A DNA stretch of 64,000 bases, from the NCBI RefSeq assembly GCF_009914755.1, contig NC_060925.1. One strand, given 5' to 3'. Position numbers and translations under genes: made by a program. Origin of the DNA: the human T2T-CHM13v2.0 reference genome, Homo sapiens. Positions 7,936 through 64,000 of this stretch are shown piece after piece (the first letter of the stretch is position 1; each line of letters opens with the position of its first letter). The notes below the pieces were generated by a model. That model saw nothing but the letters and a program-made list of their open reading frames with translations, searched no databases and was not told where the DNA came from.

Positions 7936-9114
7936 GGGTTAATAATTATGCTAATAATTCAAATTGGTGTTATTTATAAGATTTATGACTTTCTAGCCCT
8001 CCAACAATAGAAAATGAGAACATTAACTATATCTCATCTATACAACTGAAAGCCACATAGACACATATTCATGTAGGAAAAGTTTTCTCACTAATATGGA
8101 AAAATAAAAGCAAGTTTTAGAGCCCTATAACAGCATGCAATTTTTACCAGAAAGATAAATAAAATTATGTAATATATTTAAATGAACATATAAATGTTTA
8201 GCTAATTTATAAATATATAAAATCTAGAAGAACATATACGAAAAAGTTAACAGTGGTTCTTTGTGAGTGGTAGGAGAACGGGTATTTTTTCCCTTTTTGT
8301 TTAAATTTATTTTCCCATTTTACTACAATAATCATATTGTAGTAAATCAGATTGTTTGATTTAAAAAGTTATATAAAGTAAAAATTAAAAGGGGGCCTCT
8401 AAAAATAAGTGGTTTTGTATATAAAAAAAGGAGTTCTTCTGTGATAAGGCAGCAAAAAACTTGGATTTTATATTGTGGAATGGCAAACTAGCAACGAAGA
8501 AGGAAAATACTCCATGTGCCCATGGGAAAACCTAGAGAAAGGCCCGGGGGTTGGGTGATATCCCCGGCTACAGCTGAATTTCACAGACTTACTGGGCCCT
8601 GGTATCACATCTAGGCATTCATTTTTCCTAGACATCATATCTCATAAGAGATGGAAACAATCATTCTAAATTTAACTGATGGGAAAACAGGAAGAAACTT
8701 AGACAAGCCCATTGTATAAAGGAACTGTAATCTATGAAAGGCACAAAAGCCCATTTTCTTATGAAATGCCCACAATGGAAGTTTTTCGAGGCACAAAAAG
8801 TATCCTTGTCACTGACCCTTTACAATACTCTGAAAACAGTTTTTAATTTTCTCAACTCTAAAATAATAGAACCATTGCTTTTTGACTTGGATACTTAAGT
8901 TGGGGGGCAGCAACTAAGAAACGTGGGAGAGATACGTTTGTAGCGTATGAAGGGGTTGTGATTGCTTTGCTGCAGTTATGGTGTGGTATTTGACTTTGTA
9001 TCTTAGGGTCAAAAGCAATTCTCGATTGAGTAAAGGGCAATGAGTAAAGGGGCTAGACTGAGTCTGACTTTGACCCAGATCCCTTTATACATCCCTTCTT
9101 TAGAGACGTATGTT

Positions 9115-9410
9115 ACCTTAGATTTCCAGGCATGACATCGTCCTGGCCACCCTTTCTTTTTCCTTGTTTCTCCTTTTTTGCCCCATCTCTCACATGTCAG
9201 CATGTCCCAAGACCCTCTCTTCGGCCCTCTAATTCTGTATCTCACCTTACAGAGAACTCACCTCCTCTTCTGCCTTCACACCCGCACAAGTAATTGTCAA
9301 AGTGATGAGATTAGTCCTGGGAAAATCAGGGAAGGCTTTATAGAGGAGGCAGGCTTTTTGAGAGGTGATGACTTTCAGTTGGGAAACCGTGTGCAGGGGG
9401 AAAAGGCTCT
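9115..9410 (+). repeat. Left arm of a long inverted repeat (~296 bp)
   Basis: Reverse complement of 9992-10287, checked base by base: 9115-9331 identical, mismatches at 9332, 9341, 9349, 9353, 9372, 9403, 9408. Confidence 0.97.
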
Positions 9411-9991
9411 CAGATAAGGGAAACCGTACTAACTAAAGCACAGAGAGGTAGAGAAGTTCTGGGTCTGTGAGGGAGACTGCTAGTTTGATACGAAACTTGT
9501 TCATTGATCCTTAGAAACACTAATAAACCGTGCTTTCATTTTTCTGTCACACCTGCATGTTTCTTTCTTGCTTCTGTGTCCCCAAGTACCTTCCTGGACA
9601 AACGAAGCTTCCTGGTCCATTTGTGCTTCATTTACACACTGGTTATTTTTCTCACTTCTGAGTGTCTGAGGCCATCAAGGGAAAAATCCCAGTCTTTCCC
9701 TGCCGACTATTCAGACAAGAGCTGAGTTCTTCTCCTTCTTAACCCTTATTAGCCATCAGAGTTTATTCTGATGCTCAGTGTTTAGAGTTATTTGCTCATG
9801 TAATGTGTCTTTTTTATGGTTTGGTCTTTTACTCACAATTTTAAATACCTGGAGCTAGCAGGACTCTAGTGAGACAGCATTTACGGCCTTACGTTATACT
9901 TACTTAGCTTATTTTAGTCCGTACTTGAACCGGCAGGACTCATACATATATCTCCTATTGTACTGTTTTGGAATGTAATAGTCAAAGACCA

Positions 9992-10287
9992 AGTGCCTGT
10001 TCCCCCTGCACACGGTTTCCCAACTGAAATTCATCACCTCTCAAAAAGACTGACTCCTCTTTAAAGCCTGCCCTGATTTTCCCAGGACTAATCTCATCAC
10101 TTTGACAATTACTTGTGCGGGTGTGAAGGCAGAAGAGGAGGTGAGTTCTCTGTAAGGTGAGATACAGAATTAGAGGGCCGAAGAGAGGGTCTTGGGACAT
10201 GCTGACATGTGAGAGATGGGGCAAAAAAGGAGAAACAAGGAAAAAGAAAGGGTGGCCAGGACGATGTCATGCCTGGAAATCTAAGGT
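9992..10287 (-). repeat. Right arm of a long inverted repeat (~296 bp)
   Basis: Pairs with 9115-9410 (position sum 19402); the twin ORFs 9178+ and 9982- in the track share MPHLSHVSMSQDPLF... Confidence 0.97.
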
Positions 10288-10608
10288 TGTTTGATATAGT
10301 GTTCTTTGCAATGACCAACTCAGTTTAATTTGCTTGGAACAATATTCTACACAGCATTACGCAGAAATGGATACTTCATAGATGCCTTTTCACAAATATG
10401 ATATTGATGATCCAATCTTCATAAAGAACCTTTAGTTTCATGAAAAAGAAATCTTCTAAATAGATTAAATGAATGCAAATATACTTTTATTTAGAACTCT
10501 TACTCTCAATCATTTAAGAAGTAGTTTTACGAAAAAGTGTCTCGAATGAAGACATTCACTGAAAAAGTTTTAAGTTTCGAATCAAAATTACTTTTAAAAG
10601 CTAATACA

Positions 10609-10903
10609 GGCTGGGCACAGCCACTCACGCCTGTAATCCCAGCACTTTGGGAGGCTAAGGCGGGCAAATCACGAGGTCAGGAGTTCGAGACCGGCCTGGC
10701 CAACATGGCGAAATCCTGTCTCTACTAAAATACAAAAATTAGCTGGATGTGGTGGGGCACTCCTGTAATCTCACCTACTTAGAAGGCTGAGGTAGTAGAG
10801 TCGTTTGAACCCAGGAGGCAGAGGTTGCAGTGAGCTAAGATACATGCCACTGCACTCCAGCCTGGGTGACAAAACAAGACTCCATCTAAAAAAAAAAAAA
10901 AAA
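10609..10903 (+). mobile_element. Alu, full length (AluS, Sg-like)
   Basis: ggctgggc...tgtaatcccagcactttgggagg...atcacgaggtcaggagttcgagacc, A-rich linker and poly(A) tail. Confidence 0.95.
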
Positions 10904-10914
10904 CCAACACCTAA

Positions 10915-11050
10915 TATATGTTGAGGTCTTCTTAAATGCCAGACGTTTAATAATACCCTTATGACATAAGTATTATTACTACCATTTAACAGATGACAAA
11001 ACTGGGGCTATAACATTACTGTAACAGGAACAAGGTCATAGAGCTGGTAA
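10915..11050. mobile_element. MIR SINE
   Basis: 'tattattactaccatttaacagatgacaaaactggggct...caaggtcatagagctggtaaatg'. Confidence 0.55.
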
Positions 11051-11365
11051 ATGTTCAACAATAGTTAAGTAAATTATGTTACATCAACACAGGGGAACTA
11101 TTTAAAATCATTAAAGTGACCATAATACTGACTAAAGAAACATTAAAAAGTTCTTTAAAGTCTAATGAAAATTTCAACTATGGCATTATGTATACCTAAT
11201 GGTTATTGACATTTGACATTTTGAAATTATAGACACAAATTGTGATAGTCTAGGAAGGAGAAAGAAAATAAAATGGTTATATTGTTAGGATGATGGGTTT
11301 AGTGTTGTTTCATTCTTTTAGTCCAAGTTACTATTAATGTAATTTTATGTGATTTTAAACAATAA

Positions 11366-11707
<342 letters not shown>

Positions 11708-14700
11708 AATACCTCATGTTTCTGTAAGAATTCTTGAGAAAGATATTATAGAATTCCATATCTATCTCTTGTTTATTCCCATCTATATAGTATCCACTTT
11801 TGTAAATAATTATTCCCTCTTGGAAATGGAAAAATGATTGAGAGGGCAGAGCTTTGATCCCAAATTTATGTATTTTTTTCTCTGGTGTCTCTGAAAACTG
11901 CTTTGATTACATAGTCTAAAAGATATAAGAAATTGGAATATTACCTAAGGAACTGGGTTGAGTTGGATTGCCAATGTAGATTTTTGTATGAGTTGGACGG
12001 AAATGATTTTATCGGCTTCCTCAGTTTGCTTTGCAGATGTCTTGCTTCTTGTTGAAATGAGAAGGGAGAAACAACTTAGCTGTGGAAGCTTCCTTGTATG
12101 CCTGTTGACAAGTACTGTGCAACATATTTGACGTTTTTTGGGGTAGACATAATTATGGCTTTAGTTCCCCACCCTACCCCACCCCCACACACAAAGGGGA
12201 AAAGTACTTAAAGAGAAAACTACAAACAAACAACAGTATGGAAACAGACTTTATATGACCCCTGAAATAAAATGTTAATTTATTTGTATCACAATGAGGC
12301 ATAATCCGAAATAGCAGAAAAGCAACCTCCATAAATTGAAATAGGCAAAGACTCTTAAAAGAATAACAGCCATTTATGGAAGCATTTAAAATAATTGAAG
12401 GGAACTGGAGTGCAAAAACAAACTATATACCCATGGCTCCAAATCCCTGGTTCCAGAAAACAGGCAAGGACATTTGTTTCCGCACACATCTGGATCTATG
12501 ATGCCTGCCCCTCCACCCATTGACCGACACTCACAAAAGCTACAGGGATAACCTACCATCGAAGAGGAGGCTTTCCTACTTGTATGTAGTATGAAATCAT
12601 AAATCCTACATTATTTAGATGAGCAGTGAAAATGGAAACCTTTAAAGTTTGTACTTTCCACAGGAAGTCTCAATCCTCCCTGAACAGATGATTTTGATTT
12701 CAGAGTACACAGTGGGCCTTTAACTTCTTCAGCTTCAGGGGTATGTTAAATTCCAAGACTCCTTCACTATCCTAAAGAAACAGCAATAAAACATGTTTCA
12801 GGATTCAGTTCCTCCAGCTTCAGAGGCTGAGATGGATGAACTAGTTTGGGGGAAATGAGACATGACCCAACCCTTCACCTAAACAAAAATGACTCCAAAT
12901 TGAACTTTTTAGAAAGTTCAATACTATGTAATAGAAACTTTCTTAAAAAGAAATACTGATTTTACATTGTACACTATCCAATTCCCATTGTGCCTAGAAG
13001 TAGAAGACCTGAACTGAAATGGAAAGAAGGGATGGATTCCTTTCCTCCTACCAGTACAGGGAAACAGCCAGGAACACCAACAAAGAGACAGGGGGCATGT
13101 TCTCCTTGCAACCAGCCACTCTGGAAAGTTTATGCAAGCTATTCATAAGCACTCATTTGGTTAAAGATGAATCTTCATGGCAATTTTTAAGCCATTTATC
13201 TCAATGGATCCAAAGATATGTTCTGAATTAAGCTAACTTAACACCAATTCATCTTATAATTTCTTTTAATCTATAAGATAATTCTTCAAGCCATTGGAAT
13301 TGGCCATATATGAATTAGAATTGATGACACAGGACCATATAAGAAATTCTTTTATCAAAATAAATGAATGAAAAAGTATGTAAGTTATGCTTCCAAACTT
13401 TTTCAAATAGTGAGTGATTAATTTATTTTTTATCATCTCTGCAGTCTGATCTGTGAGCAACAGGCTGAACTATAAGACAACTGACCTGGATTTGAGGTAA
13501 TTCTATGGGTATTATGGGTATAGAAGAAAGGAAATGTTACTTGGTCTTATGAGGAGTGAACCTATATATTCAACTATTTAACACTTCATCGAGACAAAGA
13601 CCACAGAACTGCCAGTTACTTAGGAGGTCGTGCCACACAGTAGAAAGCACACTCGGACAGCTAAACTGGGAGTCAATTCCTGGCTATGTTTATGTGAAGC
13701 TGGACAAGCTACTTAATTTTTAAACTAACTCTCCTTTTTTAATTCATAAAAGCAGCAGAAACCTACTTCATTCCTTTGTAAAATGCCTACACGTAATAGG
13801 TACCATAAAATGGAGTATGCTAGCTCTACCAAGTTCTGATAGGCTAAGCTATTAAGACATTGATAGAAACAAGAAACCATTACCACACAGTAAGTAGTGT
13901 ACATTTTAAAAAGGCTACTTAAGCTTCATTCAAGAAAGGTCTTAATTCTCTAATTGTTTTTAAAGACCTGTTTTGTTTATTCTTTGGCAGCAAATAATTT
14001 AAAGTGTGCTCAGGAATGGCGGAGAGAAGGAGAAAAATGGAGCCAGGGAATGGAAAGGAGATACTCTTTAGGAATTAGTGGGTTCACTGACAAAGAGTAT
14101 CTGTCTGTGGGTTACAGTCAGAGGGAGGAGAGCATAACTGACTGCCTGTTAAAGGAGACAGCAGAGGAAAGCCAGGAAAGCCGGGGAAGTATCCTTTGGT
14201 AGGCGTCAAGACATGGGGAGGTATTATAGCTCTTTAGCAGTCTTAGTAGTAACTATCTCATTACAGTGCGGGGAGAAGGTGAGTGACTCATTTTAAGTAA
14301 AAGAAGATAGTGCTTGATGTAGGGAGGATCACAGAGACAAAGATGTGATACTAAGTATTTCACTCAAAGAAACCATATTTTAAAAATCCCCAGCAAAGCC
14401 TTCCTTTCTTCCTGTTTAGAAAGTTGAATGAGTTGACAGTGATTCTGTGGAAAGGGGTATCACAGAGGGGACAAAGGTATTGCTAAACTCAAACTATAAA
14501 CTCTATACTTCAAAAAAATATGTAAAATTAAAGTGTCTATTCATCATCTGGAACAAATCAGATACCTTCGGCAATTATTACACTTGATCTGATTATAAAG
14601 TTGACAAAAAGTGCATTTTAATGAAGCTGTCTTGTGATCACAATACCACAATGCTGTTCAATAAATTATCCTCTACACTTTTCTAAAAGCTTGAAATACT

Positions 14701-41248: not shown

Positions 41249-43261
41249 CCACATTTTCTTTATCCAGTCCACCACACCAGTGATGGGCATCCAGGTTGTC
41301 TTCATGTCTTTACTATTGTGAAAAGTGCTGTGATGAACTGTGCATACATGTGTTTTTCTGGTAGAATGATTTATATTCTGGGTATATATCCAGTAATTGG
41401 ATTGCTGGGTTGAATGGTAGTTCTGTTTTAAGTTCTTTAACAAATCTCCAAACTGCTTTCCACAGTAGCTGAATTAGTTTACATTTCCACCGGCAGTGTA
41501 CAAGTATTCTTTTTTCTCTGCAACCTCACCAACATCTGTTATTCTTTGACTCTTTAATAATAGCCATTCTGACTGGTATAAGGTGGTATCTTATTGTGGT
41601 TTTGATTAGAATTTCTTTAATGATTAGTGATGTTGAGCATTTTTTCATATGCTTATTGGCTGCATGTATGTCTTCTTTTGAAAAGTGTCTGTTCATGTCC
41701 TTTGTTCACTTTTTAATGGGGTTGTTTGTTTTTCGCTTGTTGATTTGTATAAGTTCCTCATAGAATCTGGATATTAGACCTTTGTTGGATGCATAGTTCA
41801 CAAATATTTTCTGTCATTCTTTAGATTGTCTGTTTACTCTGTTGATGGTCTCCTTTGCTAAGCAGAAGTGCTTTAGTTTAATTACGGCCCAGTTATACAT
41901 TTTTATTTTTGTTTGCAATTGCTTTTGAAATCTTCATCATGATATCTTTGTGAAGGCCTATGTCCACAGTGATATTTCATAGGTTTTCTTCTAGGGTTTT
42001 TATAGTTTTAGGTTTTATGTTTAAGTCTTTCATCCATCTTGAGTTGATTTTTGGATATGGTGAAAGGAAGGGGTCCAGTTTCAATCTTCTGCATACGGCT
42101 AACCAGTTATTCTAGCACCATTAATTGAAGAGGGAGTCCTTTCCCCATTGCTTGTTACTATTGACTTTGTTGAAGATCAAATGGTTATAGGTGTGTGGCT
42201 TTATTTCTGGGCTCTCTATTCTGTTCCATTGGTCTATGCATCTGTTTTTGTAACAGTGCCATGCTGTTTTCGTATACAAAGTAGCCTTGTAGTATAGTTT
42301 GAAGTTGGGTAGTATTCTTTTTCCTTAGGTTTACTTTGGCTATTCAGGCCTTTTTTGTTGTTTAATTCCATGTGAATTTTAAAATAGCTTTTTTCTAGTT
42401 GTATGAACAATGACATTGGTAGTTTGATAGGAATAGCACTGAATCTGTATTGCTTTGGGCAGTATGGTCATTTTAACCATATTCTTCCTATCCATAAGCA
42501 TGGAATATTTTTCGATTTGTCTTTGTTGTCTTTGATTTCTTTCAGCAATACTTTATAATTCTCACTGTAGATATATTTCACTTACCTGGTTAGCTGTATC
42601 CTGTAAACTGAAGTTTCAGGATACAAAACTGAAACTGAAAACTGAAGTTTTCCATCCATTCTAGGAGACTTTGAGCAGAGACTCTGGGGTTTTCTAGGTA
42701 TAGAATCATATCACCCGCAAAGAGATCTAGTTTGACATCCAGTCTTCCTATTTAAATGTCTTTTATTTCTTTCTTTTGCCTGATTGCTCTGTCTAGGATT
42801 TCCTGTACTGTCTTGAATAGGAGTGGTGAGGGTGGGCATTCCTGTCTTGTTCTCATTCTAAGGGGGAATGCTTTCTGCTTTTTCCCATTCCGTATGATGG
42901 GAAGTATGAGGTTGGCTGTGGGTTTCTTATAGATGGCTCTTATTATTTTGAGATATGTTCCTTTGATGCCTACTTTTTTGAGGGTTTTTAACATAAACAG
43001 ATGTTAAATTTTATTGAGAGCCTTTTCTGCATCTATTGAGATGATCATCCTGTCTTTGTTTTTAGTTCTCTTTATGTGATGAATCACATTTATTGATTTG
43101 TGTATGTTGAAGTAAACTTGCAACCCAGGGATAAAACCTACTTGATCATAATAGATTAGCTTTGCAATGTGGTGCTGGATTCAACTGGCTAGTATGTGTC
43201 TATGTTCATCAGGGACATTGTCCTGAAGTTTTCTTCCCTCATTGTGTCTGTGCCAGGTTTT

Positions 43262-43614
<353 letters not shown>

Positions 43615-46051
43615 TGATGCTGCCCTCATAGAATGACTTAGGGAGGCATCCCTCCTCCTCAATTTTTTGGAATAGTTTGATAGGTTGATACCACCCTTCT
43701 TTATATGTCTGGTATAATTCAGTTGTGAATCCATCTGTTCCCGGACTTTTTCTGGTTGGTAGTTCTTTAATTACTGATTAGATTTCAGAGCTCGTTATTG
43801 GTCTGTACAGATATGCGATTTCTTCCTGGCTCAATCTTGAAAGTTGGGTATTTCCAGGAATTCATTCATTTCTTCTAGGTTTTCTAGTTTGTGTGCATAG
43901 AGGTATTTGTAATAGTCTCTGAGGGTTTTATGTATTTGTTTGTGGTCAGTGGTAATGTCACCTTTGTCATTTCTGATTGTGTTTATTTGAATCTTCTCTC
44001 TTTTTTTCTTTATTAGTCTAGCTAGAAGTATATTAATCTATTTATTCTTTAAAAGTGCAAACTTTTGGTTTCACTTGTCTTTTGTACGGGTTTTTATGTC
44101 TCAATTCCATTCAGTTCAGCTCTGATTTTGGCTCTTTCTGCTAGCTTTGGAATTGGTTTCCTCTTGTTTGTCTAGTTTCTCTAGGTGGGATGTTAGGTTG
44201 TTAATTTGAGATCGTTCTACCATTTTGATGTTGGCATTTAGCACTCTAAACTTTCCCCTGAATAATGCTTTAGCTGTATCCCAGAGAATCTGGTATGTTG
44301 TATCATTGTTTTTATAAGTTTCAAACAATGTCTTTATTTCTGCCTTAATTTCATTCTTTACCCAAAAGTCATTCAGGAGCAGGTTGTTTAATTTCCATGT
44401 AATTGTACAGTTTTCAAAAATCCTCTTGGTATTGATTTCAATTTTTATTGCACTGTGGTCTTTGAATGTGGTTCGTATGATTTTGGTTTTTTGAGTTTGT
44501 TAGGAATTGCTTTATGGCCGAACAGGTGGTCAATCTTGCAGTATGTGCCATGCGCAGATGAGAACATATATTCTGTTGTTTTGGGATGGAGTGTTCTGTA
44601 GATATCTGCTGGATCAAGTTTAGATCCTGCAGCTTTATTAGTTTTCTGCCTCAATGAACCGTCTAACCCTTAGAGTGGGCTGTTGAAGTTTCCCACTATT
44701 ATTGTGTGGTAATTTAAGTCTCTTTGCAGGTCTATAATAACTTGTTTTATGAGTCTGAGTGCTCCAGTGTTCGGTGCATATATATTTAGGATAGTTGTCT
44801 TCTTGTCGAATTAAACACTTTATCATTTTGTAATTCCCTTCTTTGTCCTTTTTGATCACTGTTGGTTTAAAGTTTGTTTTGTCTGACATAAAAATAACAA
44901 TCCCTGGTCTTTTTGTTTTCTGTTTGCTTGATAAATCTTTCTCCATTCCTTTTCTTTGAGCCTTTGGGTGTCATGGCATGTGAGATGGGTTTCTTGAAGA
45001 GTACACGCAGGTGGGTGTTACTTTTTCATCCAACTTCCCACTCTGTGCCTTTTAAGTGAGGCCTTTAGCCCGTTTACTTTCAACATTAATATTGCTTTGT
45101 GCGGATTTGATTCTGTCATTGTGTTGTTAGCTGGTTGTTGCGTAGAACTGATTGTATAGTTGCTATATTGTCAGTGGGATATGTACTTAAGTGTGTTTTT
45201 GTGGTGTCGGATAACAGCTTTTTGTTTCCACGTTTAGCAGTCCCTTAAGGACCTCTTGCAAGGCAGGGTGTAATGAATTCCCTTAGGATTTGCTTGTCCA
45301 AAAAGGATTTTATTACTCTTTTGCTTGGGAAGCTTAGTTCAGCTTGATATGAAATTCTTGGTTGGAATTTCTTTTTCTCAACGTTGCTTAATATAGACCC
45401 ACAGTCTCTTCTGGCTTGTACAGTTTCTGCTGAAAGGTTTGTTGTTAGGTTGTTAGCCTAATGGGGCTCCCTTTATATGTGACTTGCTCCTTCTCTCTAG
45501 CTGCCCATAATATTTTTTCTTTCATGTTGACAATGGAGAATCTGATGACTATGTGTCTTGGGGATGGTCATCTTGTATAGTTTCTTGCAGGGTTTCTCTG
45601 AGTTTCCTAAATTTGCATGTCAATCTTTCTAGCGAGGCTTGGGAAATTTTAGTGGACAATATCCTTAAGTATGTTTTCCAAGTTGCCTGCTCTCTCTCCT
45701 TCTCTTTCTGGTATGCCAGTAAGTGATAGGTTTGGTCTCTGTACATAATCCCATATTTTTGGAGGTTTTGTTAATTTTTTAAAAACGCTTTTTTCTTTAT
45801 TTTTTTCTGAGTTGATTCGAATAACATCAGTTCTGAATCAGGCTCTGAGATTCTTTCCTCAGCTTGGTCTCTTCTGTTGTTAATACTTTGATTGTATTAT
45901 AACATTCTTGTAGGGAGATTTTCAGCTCTAGAAGATTAGTTCAATTCTTTCTTAAAATGGCTATTTTACTTTTCAGCTCTTGCATCATTTTATTGGATTA
46001 CTTGGACTGAGTTTCAGCTTTCTCTTGAATCTCAAGGAGCTTTGTTGCCAT

Positions 46052-62905: not shown

Positions 62906-63646
62906 CAAATCCAGCAGCACATCAAAAAGCTTATCCACCACATTAAAGTGGGCTTCATCCCTGTGATGCAAGTCTCGTTCAACATAAGCAAATCAATAAA
63001 CGTAATCCATCACATAAACAGAACCAACGACAAAAACTGCATGATTGTCTCAATAGATGCAGAAAAGGCCATCGATAAAATTCAACACCCTTCATGCTAA
63101 AAACACTCAATAAACTACATATTGATGGAACATATCTCAAAATAATAAGAGCTATTTATGACAAATCCATAGCCAATATCATACTGAATGGGTAAAAGCT
63201 GGAAGCATTCCCTTTGAAAATTGGCATAAGACAAGGATGCCCTCTCTCACCACTCCTATTCAACATAGTATTGGAAGTTCTGGCCAGGGCAATTGGGCAA
63301 GAGAAAGAAATAAAATGTATTCAAATAGGAAGAGAGGAAATCAAATTGTCTCTGTTTGCAGATGACATGATTGTATATTTCGAAAACCCCATCGTCTTAG
63401 CCCAAAAACTCCTTAAGCTGGTAAACAACTTCAGCAAAGTCTCAGGCTACACAATTCATGTGCAAAAATCACAAGCATTCTTATACACCAATAATAGACA
63501 AGGAGAGAGCCAAATCATGAGTGAACTCCCATTCACAATTGCTACGAAGAAAATAAAGTACCTAGGAATACAAGTTAAAAGGAACATGAAGGACCTCTTC
63601 AAGGAGAACTACAAATCACTGCTCAAGGAAATAAGAGAGGACACAA
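62906..63646 (+). mobile_element. L1 ORF2 reverse-transcriptase region, inverted (segment 2)
   Basis: [36 protein letters not shown] and [10 protein letters not shown] motifs, with a frameshift. Confidence 0.93.
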
Positions 63647-64000
63647 ATATTAGATGGATCAATGAGACAGAAAATTAACAATGATATCTAGGACTTGAAC
63701 TCAGTTCTGGACCAAGCAGACCTAATAGACATCTACAGAACTCTCCACTCCAAATCAACAGAATATACATTCTTCTCAGCACCACATTGCACTTATTCTA
63801 AAATTGACCACATAATTGAAAGTAAAATACTCCTCAGCAAATGCAAAAGAACAAAAATCACAATGAACTGTCTCTCAGACCACAATGCAATCAAATTAGA
63901 ACTCAGGATTAAGAAACTCACTCAAAACCACACAACTACATGGAAACTGAACAACTTGCTCCTGAATGACTACTGGGTAAATAACGAAATGAAGGCAGAA
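63647..64000 (+). mobile_element. L1 ORF2 endonuclease C-terminal region (segment 3, runs off the window)
   Basis: Encodes [28 protein letters not shown] and [14 protein letters not shown], which lie upstream of the RT domain in an intact L1. Confidence 0.9.

What the first reader, a model, noticed from the sequence alone, without database searches (positions are those of the whole stretch)
9115..10287. 1.17 kb non-Alu palindrome: ~296 bp inverted arms around a 581 bp spacer
Seen: 9115-9410 is the reverse complement of 9992-10287, with no indels and a perfect outer 217 bp. I recognise no transposon family in the arms apart from an L2-like inner end, so this is not a chance pair of dispersed repeats. 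Inference: it could be a recurrent ~0.6-1.2 kb inversion substrate, a hairpin- or cruciform-forming fragile site, or a ~300 bp near-perfect dsRNA stem if transcribed (ADAR, Dicer or MDA5 substrate).
Basis: partly seen in the sequence, partly recalled or inferred. Interest (0 to 1): 0.8.

Follow-up and report, generated by a model that had tools for sequence, protein, structure and literature searches.

The report
Local inverted duplication forming spaced palindrome
A 296-base stretch of unique human DNA was copied backwards and pasted 581 bases away, giving a real but probably functionless palindrome whose copy carries an odd cluster of seven transversion changes next to one junction.

Summary
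Window 9115-9410 is the reverse complement of 9992-10287: 296 nt, no indels, 7 mismatches, 581-nt spacer.

It is not a pair of dispersed repeats. In the whole T2T genome the arm has only these two copies, plus one 50-nt fragment hit. The spacer and both flanks are single-copy.

An old multi-copy repeat, L2-like by recall, runs from the left arm across its inner edge into the spacer. It does not continue on the right-arm side. So left arm plus spacer is the old arrangement, and the right arm is an inverted copy.

All 7 differences are transversions, all lie in the 79 nt nearest the spacer, and at 5 of 5 informative sites the right arm carries the derived base.

Best reading: a young local opposite-strand duplication made by a pair of template switches or a templated insertion. 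This is a known class. The transversion cluster would be a scar of low-fidelity synthesis.

- Cruciform extrusion is unlikely with a 581-nt spacer.
- Spacer inversion and fold-back in single-stranded DNA are possible but untested.
- No RNA family or annotated gene lies here.

Interest is modest.

The parts
9115..9410 (+). Left arm: the source copy, contiguous with the spacer in the old arrangement
   Evidence: Arm limits. The repeat-family consensus aligns collinearly across 9410|9411. The left allele is the commoner family base at 5 of 5 informative mismatch sites.
9115..9331 (.). Outer 217 nt of the arms, perfectly identical to 10071-10287
   Evidence: first mismatch at arm position 218.
9307..9483 (+). 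Fragment of an old multi-copy repeat (L2 3' end by recall) that spans the left arm's inner edge
   Evidence: nhmmer hit at 9307-9352, E 1.5e-5. Local alignment 9393-9483 to consensus 225-314 scores 19.5, reached by 4 of 1000 dinucleotide shuffles. 15-mer: 84 genome hits against 0 control. 16-mer: 612 against 0.
9411..9991 (.). Spacer, 581 nt, single-copy in the genome
   Evidence: one match only, to itself.
9992..10287 (-). Right arm: the derived inverted copy
   Evidence: 98% match to the left arm, one of only two genomic copies. The repeat family does not continue beyond its inner edge: 377 of 1000 shuffles reach the score.
9994..10070 (-). Cluster of 7 transversion differences in the spacer-proximal 79 nt of the copy, at right-arm positions 9994, 9999, 10030, 10049, 10053, 10061, 10070
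   Evidence: positions and bases; polarity.

Best explanation
This is a young, local, opposite-strand (inverted, non-tandem) duplication. A 296-nt stretch of unique sequence (9115-9410), holding part of an old L2-like repeat, was copied in reverse complement and laid down 581 nt away (9992-10287), leaving a spaced palindrome.

In the four-point template-switch notation the order is 3-2-1-4: synthesis left its template at about 9991, restarted on the opposite-sense template at 9410, ran back to 9115, and returned at 10288. A templated insertion at a break would give the same product.

The seven transversions, all in the 79 nt of the copy next to the spacer-side junction, are most simply a scar of low-fidelity synthesis or repair at that junction. 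The other 217 nt were copied faithfully and have not diverged since.

Shown: the structure, its two-copy status, which arm is the copy, and the mismatch pattern. Inferred: the replication or repair mechanism, that the mutations arose with the event, and the age. With a recalled rate of about 0.5e-9 per site per year, zero differences in 217 nt suggests under roughly 14 My at 95%. Nothing indicates a function.
For: - Two copies only in 3.1 Gb; spacer and both flanks single-copy. No other local duplication within window 1-25000.
- The repeat-family consensus aligns collinearly over 9393-9483, across the left arm's inner edge: score 19.5, with 0 of 300 mononucleotide shuffles and 4 of 1000 dinucleotide shuffles reaching it. 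Identity is 46/78 in the spacer part and 71/114 in the arm part. On the right-arm side 377 of 1000 shuffles reach the score.
- Mismatches are 7 of 7 transversions, all at arm positions 218-294. By my arithmetic, (79/296)^7 is about 1e-4 for the clustering, and (1/3)^7 is about 5e-4 for the type, using a recalled transition share of two thirds.
- Polarity, family copies carrying the left allele versus the right allele: 9332, A 23 of 28 versus C 0 (independent locus set); 9341, T 14 versus A 6; 9349, G 34 versus T 4; 9403, A 12 versus C 1; 9408, T 8 versus A 1 (independent set).
- All 4 CpGs of the arm are kept in both copies.
- Literature, passages read. Opposite-strand non-tandem duplications were 21 of 166 local rearrangements in one human genome (PMC5829575). 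The 3-2-1-4 pattern is one of the two majority patterns that create inverted repeats (PMC7954356). Paired orientation-reversing switches need little or no homology, and a low-fidelity polymerase was proposed (10.1101/2020.03.06.980458). Breakpoint-associated hypermutation is mostly transversions (PMC5413072). SNP density is raised in phase with deletions (PMC4937565).
Against: - No outgroup or second human haplotype could be examined, so the empty site, the age and the polarity rest on one assembly.
- nhmmer with the family profile aligned only 9307-9352 and did not itself reach the arm edge. The crossing alignment rests on a Smith-Waterman test of modest strength (4 of 1000). The spacer part alone is weak (39 of 1000).
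- At 9372 the right allele A is the commoner family base (A 18, G 14, C 2). I count this site uninformative because any transversion from C gives A or G, but it could be a change on the left arm. Site 9353 could not be aligned reliably.
- Seven changes in 79 nt (about 9%) is far above the densities in the breakpoint-mutagenesis passages I read.
- No microhomology of 1-7 nt was found at either junction. That fits end-joining capture as well as template switching.
- A crossover within the perfect outer 217 nt would invert the middle and give the same internal sequence. So which flank adjacency is ancestral cannot be told from one haplotype.
Confidence: 0.7

Rival explanations
1. An older inverted duplication whose outer 217 nt were recently made identical by arm-to-arm gene conversion, while the inner 79 nt kept accumulated divergence.
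For: There is a sharp split between a perfect outer block and a 91%-identical inner block. Arm-to-arm conversion is well known for larger palindromes (established knowledge, recalled).
Against: Ordinary divergence should be about two-thirds transitions; here it is 0 of 7. The changes are one-sided: 5 of 5 informative sites are derived on the right arm. The CpG in the inner block (CCGTG, around 9389) survives in both arms. Edge effects on conversion should act at both ends of the arm, yet the outer end is perfect to its last base.
Confidence: 0.13
2. An assembly or sequencing artefact in T2T-CHM13: the right arm is not in the real chromosome.
For: Only one assembly was seen. Palindromes are a known source of chimeric reads (recalled).
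Against: Read-level fold-back artefacts give spacer-less palindromes, not a 581-nt unique spacer with two clean junctions in unique sequence (inference). Seven base differences between the arms are not what a mis-joined duplicate read would give. A 1.2-kb structure lies well within single long reads (recalled).
Confidence: 0.03
3. A mobile element: either a DNA transposon or MITE with 296-nt terminal inverted repeats, or two independent insertions of one repeat family in opposite orientation.
For: A 4-nt direct repeat TGTT flanks the whole unit, at 9111-9114 and 10288-10291. Part of the arm belongs to a multi-copy family.
Against: There is no other full or near-full copy of the arm in 3.1 Gb; only 50 of 296 nt match elsewhere. 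The family part is about 60% identical to its consensus while the arms are 97.6% identical to each other. The family fragment runs on into the spacer on one side only. A 4-nt flank match is weak.
Confidence: 0.02
4. A functional hairpin-RNA locus (long hairpin, endo-siRNA or miRNA-like precursor) kept by selection.
For: As a single strand the arms pair end to end (DNA fold -426.8 kcal/mol). PMC5398296 reports that 7.8% of human intergenic inverted duplicates are expressed (abstract).
Against: No Rfam match lies within 9115-10287; all 6 weak matches lie in the Alus at 10606-11500. No gene is annotated in the window (hub note). ORFs are at most 72 aa. The structure looks too young for conservation to be assessed.
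Confidence: 0.03

Closest known systems
Localized non-tandem duplication on the opposite strand (Frith & Khan 2018, PMC5829575)
   Same: A segment of a few hundred bases is copied and inserted nearby in reverse orientation with the source kept. That survey reports it as a recurring class, 21 of 166 rearrangements.
   Different: Here the event is read from a single assembly with no ancestral allele. It also carries a junction-proximal cluster of transversions, which the passages I read do not describe.
Short-range template-switch mutations, four-point model pattern 3-2-1-4 (Loytynoja & Goldman; Walker et al. 2021, PMC7954356)
   Same: The order of points is the same, and a new inverted repeat is created. 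The copied template lies behind the departure point, so intra- or inter-strand switching is possible.
   Different: The scale differs. That model searches templates within 'tens to hundreds of nucleotides' and usually explains small mutation clusters. Here the copied piece is 296 nt and lies 581 nt away.
Paired orientation-reversing template switches (replication U-turns) (10.1101/2020.03.06.980458)
   Same: Two switches restore the original direction. Little or no junction homology is needed, and a low-fidelity polymerase is suggested.
   Different: Most reported events lie under 50 bases apart, and paired ones mostly under 400 bp.
Inverted-repeat-flanked polymorphic inversions formed by NAHR (PMC3961182)
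   Same: Highly identical inverted arms flank a unique segment.
   Different: The validated inversions there span 5.1-226 kb, with candidate IRs up to 40 kb. Here the arms are 296 nt around 581 nt, and no second orientation has been seen.
Cruciform-prone palindromes and closely spaced inverted Alus (Lobachev laboratory; PMC10164571)
   Same: Long, nearly perfect inverted arms able to pair within one strand.
   Different: The 581-nt spacer and centre-proximal mismatches are both features said to suppress cruciform-driven instability in duplex DNA.

Membership tests
Local opposite-strand duplication / template-switch product | Exactly two copies, inverted, close together, of otherwise unique sequence | tested here: met
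Local opposite-strand duplication / template-switch product | One copy is continuous with its old surroundings; the other is bounded by new junctions | tested here: met
   The old repeat crosses 9410|9411 (4 of 1000 shuffles reach the score) but not the right arm's inner edge (377 of 1000). The outer junctions could not be polarised; the upstream profile failed.
Local opposite-strand duplication / template-switch product | An ancestral allele without the copy exists in an outgroup or in other haplotypes | not testable with these tools
   No primate or other human assembly is held. The junction 31-mer gave 0 matches in genome contigs and viral contigs.
Local opposite-strand duplication / template-switch product | Junctions with no or short microhomology | tested here: inconclusive
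   None of 1-7 nt found, assuming no deletion at the target. The target sequence before the event is unknown.
DNA transposon / MITE with terminal inverted repeats | Multi-copy family sharing the terminal repeats | tested here: not met
   Only the two arms match in 3.1 Gb.
DNA transposon / MITE with terminal inverted repeats | Target-site duplication flanking the unit | tested here: inconclusive
   TGTT lies on both sides. Four bases is weak evidence.
Inverted pair of dispersed repeats (Alu, L1, L2) | Each arm matches a repeat family along its length, and arm-to-arm identity is no higher than family divergence | tested here: not met
   Only about 9307-9410 of the arm is family-like. The arms are 97.6% alike against about 60% to the consensus.
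Cruciform-forming palindrome / fragile site | Very short or absent spacer and a perfect centre | tested here: not met
   Spacer 581 nt, with mismatches at the centre-proximal ends. Criteria from the introduction of PMC10164571.
NAHR inversion substrate | Uninterrupted identity at or above the minimal efficient processing segment | tested here: inconclusive
   217 nt perfect, against 134-232 bp mitotic and 300-500 bp meiotic estimates (PMC2583991).
NAHR inversion substrate | Both spacer orientations seen among haplotypes | not testable with these tools
   Only one haplotype is held.
Hairpin-RNA / miRNA locus | Match to a curated RNA family, or evidence of transcription | tested here: not met
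   No Rfam match in 9115-10287 at E up to 1. No annotated gene (hub note). Expression data are not available here.

The most novel reading that the evidence does not exclude
The palindrome is a frozen record of a polymerase hand-over during a template switch. The first ~80 nt laid down after the switch were made by a very low-fidelity, transversion-prone polymerase: 7 errors in 79 nt, no transitions and no indels. The next 217 nt were copied without error. If other young inverted duplications in human and ape T2T genomes show the same junction-proximal transversion gradient, it would be a germline signature that dates and orients such events. It would also measure the length of the error-prone patch in vivo.
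Probability: 0.3. Interest if true: 0.5.

Novelty: new member of a known kind. Interest (0 to 1): 0.3.

Why it matters
By itself this is one more small structural quirk in a gene desert with no sign of function.

Its value is as a clean natural example. The sequence is unique, there are two copies, the junctions are sharp, and an old repeat happens to tell source from copy. All differences are transversions packed against one junction. That makes it a convenient test case for the idea that replication- or repair-based rearrangements are made partly by error-prone polymerases. It is also a simple locus at which long-read population data could show whether a 296-nt inverted repeat around 581 nt flips or folds back at a measurable rate.

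Tried and rejected
- Pairwise BLAST of both arm contexts against 28 family copies gave only 28-53-nt alignments, too short to test continuity.
- The first two family profiles, built from 28 and 24 sequences, were too weak. The 53-sequence profile still gave nhmmer hits only to 9307-9352, so I used a consensus alignment with shuffle controls.
- An upstream extension of the profile, meant to polarise the outer junctions, was swamped by Alu sequence and was dropped.
- A first read-out of family columns was off by one register and was discarded, then redone with context anchors.
- The junction 31-mer was sought in genome contigs and viral contigs, hoping for stray human sequence from another individual. 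It gave 0 matches in each.
I therefore have no density estimate of my own for such repeats.
Warburton et al. 2004 is not held.
- TRF found no tandem repeats in 8500-10900. ORFs are at most 72 aa. The composition profile shows nothing beyond slightly higher G+C in the arms.
- Transposon, dispersed-repeat-pair and cruciform readings were rejected on the membership tests above.

Full report
**Observation**

The inverted repeat is exactly as described. The arms are 9115-9410 and 9992-10287, 296 nt each and 98% complementary, with 581 nt between them (sequence read).

A base-by-base comparison finds 7 mismatches and no indels. The mismatches are at arm positions 218, 227, 235, 239, 258, 289 and 294, so the outer 217 nt are perfect. 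Neither ungapped nor gapped alignment extends the arms at either end.

It is the only inverted pair above 86% identity among the 10 pairs of at least 80 nt in the 64-kb window; the other nine are 74-85%. It is also the only non-Alu self-match in window 1-25000.

**Copy number**

The window's own assembly (3.1 Gb, 24 contigs) could be searched.

- The arm matches only itself, the other arm (98%), and one 50-nt stretch at 86% elsewhere on the same chromosome, covering arm positions 186-235.
- The spacer, 715 nt of left flank and 313 nt of right flank each match only themselves.

The tool warns that very common words are skipped, so old diverged repeats can be missed. A family of full-length copies would not be. 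This removes the 'two insertions of a repeat family' and 'transposon with long terminal repeats' readings.

**What the arm contains**

- The 15-mer at 9325-9339 occurs 84 times in the genome, against 0 for its reversed control.
- A conserved 16-mer seen downstream in several of those copies occurs 612 times against 0.
- From 58 fetched loci I built a profile of 53 aligned sequences and a consensus.

I recognise this family as the 3' region of L2. That name is recall, because no repeat library was available.

**Which arm is the copy**

nhmmer aligns the profile to 9307-9352 in the left-arm context (12.6 bits, E 1.5e-5). It aligns more weakly to the right-arm equivalent (3.2 bits, E 0.011). It does not reach the arm's inner edge in either context. 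Part of that left-over-right advantage is circular, since the first set of loci was chosen with a left-arm word.

A Smith-Waterman alignment of 9350-9560 to the consensus gives a collinear match of 9393-9483 to consensus 225-314, which crosses the arm edge at 9410|9411.

| Segment tested | Score | Shuffles reaching it |
|---|---|---|
| Left span 9350-9560 | 19.5 | 0 of 300 mononucleotide; 4 of 1000 dinucleotide |
| Right-arm equivalent | 11.5 | 377 of 1000 |
| Left spacer part alone, 9411-9560 | 14.0 | 39 of 1000 |

Identity to the consensus is 71 of 114 aligned positions in the arm and 46 of 78 in the spacer.

I conclude, with moderate strength, that the old repeat runs unbroken from the left arm into the spacer. 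The left arm plus spacer is therefore the old arrangement, and the right arm is the inverted copy.

One caveat follows from the symmetry of the structure. A crossover within the perfect outer 217 nt would invert the middle and leave the same internal sequence. So one haplotype cannot show which flank adjacency is ancestral.

**The mismatches**

All seven are transversions. Left versus right, in left-arm orientation, they are A/C, T/A, G/T, G/T, C/A, A/C and T/A.

By my arithmetic:
- Seven random positions all falling in the last 79 of 296 has probability about 1e-4.
- Seven of seven transversions has probability about 5e-4, if two thirds of ordinary substitutions are transitions (recalled).

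I compared the alleles with the family copies. Where a column had been used to choose loci, I used the independent locus set.

| Site | Left allele (copies) | Right allele (copies) | Note |
|---|---|---|---|
| 9332 | A (23 of 28) | C (0) | independent set |
| 9341 | T (14) | A (6) | |
| 9349 | G (34) | T (4) | |
| 9403 | A (12) | C (1) | |
| 9408 | T (8) | A (1) | independent set |
| 9372 | C (2) | A (18; G 14) | counted uninformative |
| 9353 | not scored | not scored | no stable alignment |

At 9372 the right allele is the commoner one. Any transversion from C must give A or G, so I count this site as uninformative, but it may be a change on the left arm.

So 5 of 5 informative sites put the change on the copy. 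A first read-out was one column out of register and is discarded. The profile emissions point the same way.

**Mechanism**

The product is a local, opposite-strand, non-tandem duplication. In the four-point notation the points lie in the order 3 (9115), 2 (9410), 1 (9991), 4 (10288). That order is one of the two majority patterns said to create single inverted repeats (PMC7954356, passages).

Because the copied template lies behind the departure point, two routes fit:
- a nascent strand folding back on itself;
- a leading strand switching to the lagging-strand template within the fork.

Such paired orientation-reversing switches are reported to need little or no homology, and a low-fidelity polymerase has been suggested for the restart (10.1101/2020.03.06.980458, sections 6 and 14). 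I found no microhomology of 1-7 nt at either junction, assuming nothing was deleted at the target. Capture of a copied fragment by end joining would fit equally well.

Opposite-strand non-tandem duplications made up 21 of 166 local rearrangements in one human genome (PMC5829575, passages). The kind is therefore known.

For the transversion cluster, the closest support I read is:
- the statement that hypermutation near rearrangement breakpoints in tumours is mostly transversions (PMC5413072, discussion passage);
- the raised density of in-phase SNPs around germline deletions (PMC4937565, passages).

Seven changes in 79 nt is much denser than those reports. The link to the event is an inference, not a demonstration.

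**Age**

No difference in 217 nt, and all four CpGs kept in both arms, point to a young event. With a recalled rate of about 0.5e-9 per site per year, zero differences is expected with 5% probability at about 14 My. The copy could therefore be human-specific, shared with African apes, polymorphic, or private to this genome. None of this could be checked, because no other human or ape sequence is held. The junction 31-mer is absent from the two collections I could scan.

- *Hairpin or cruciform.* As a single strand the unit folds with the arms paired end to end (-426.8 kcal/mol, DNA parameters). In duplex DNA, lengthening a spacer from 12 to 20 bp already lowers inverted-Alu recombination about 40-fold, and a centre-proximal mismatch lowers it further. 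In long single-stranded DNA, spacers up to 30 kb still allow fold-back (PMC10164571, abstract and introduction). A cruciform-type fragile site is therefore unlikely. Fold-back after resection or during break-induced replication is possible.
- *Inversion.* The 217-nt perfect block is near the 134-232 bp mitotic threshold and below the 300-500 bp meiotic estimate. Close repeats may need less (PMC2583991, passages). Validated IR-mediated human inversions in the paper I read span 5.1-226 kb (PMC3961182).
- *dsRNA.* No Rfam match lies in the palindrome; all 6 weak hits lie in the Alus at 10606-11500. ORFs are at most 72 aa. There are no tandem repeats, and the hub lists no gene in the window.

**Verdict**

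This is a real, clean and probably recent inverted duplication of unique sequence. It belongs to a known class and shows no sign of function. Its one unusual feature is the one-sided, junction-proximal, all-transversion cluster. That feature deserves a look in population and ape assemblies but does not make the locus remarkable. Catalogues I read use other thresholds: LIRBase requires arms over 400 nt, and Chen et al. count 4.3 million with arms from 10 nt.

Noticed in passing
window 10606-10912 and 11413-11712: Two Alu-like elements in opposite orientation about 520 nt apart, roughly 79% alike (283-nt alignment). Weak Rfam SRP and Alu-derived miRNA-family hits fall on them. This is an ordinary inverted Alu pair right beside the palindrome.
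   Followed up: partly
window 42642-44492 versus 62908-64000: Several inverted matches of 95-257 nt at 74-80% identity, about 20 kb apart. They look like two copies of a dispersed repeat in opposite orientation and were not identified further.
   Followed up: no
window 9111-9114 and 10288-10291: The 4-nt direct repeat TGTT flanks the whole 1173-nt unit. It is too short to count as a target-site duplication, and no mobile family exists for the unit.
   Followed up: yes
G000 C19:12401752-12559709 and C1:13694701-17154587: The family words used as probes occur in local clusters. The 15-mer has five hits within about 160 kb on contig 19, and the 16-mer has eight hits within 3.5 Mb on contig 1. This suggests the old repeat copy was carried along by segmental duplications there.
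   Followed up: no
window 9202-9417 (+) and 9982-10200 (-): Mirror-image short ORFs of 71 and 72 aa lie in the two arms. They are a trivial consequence of the duplication.
   Followed up: no
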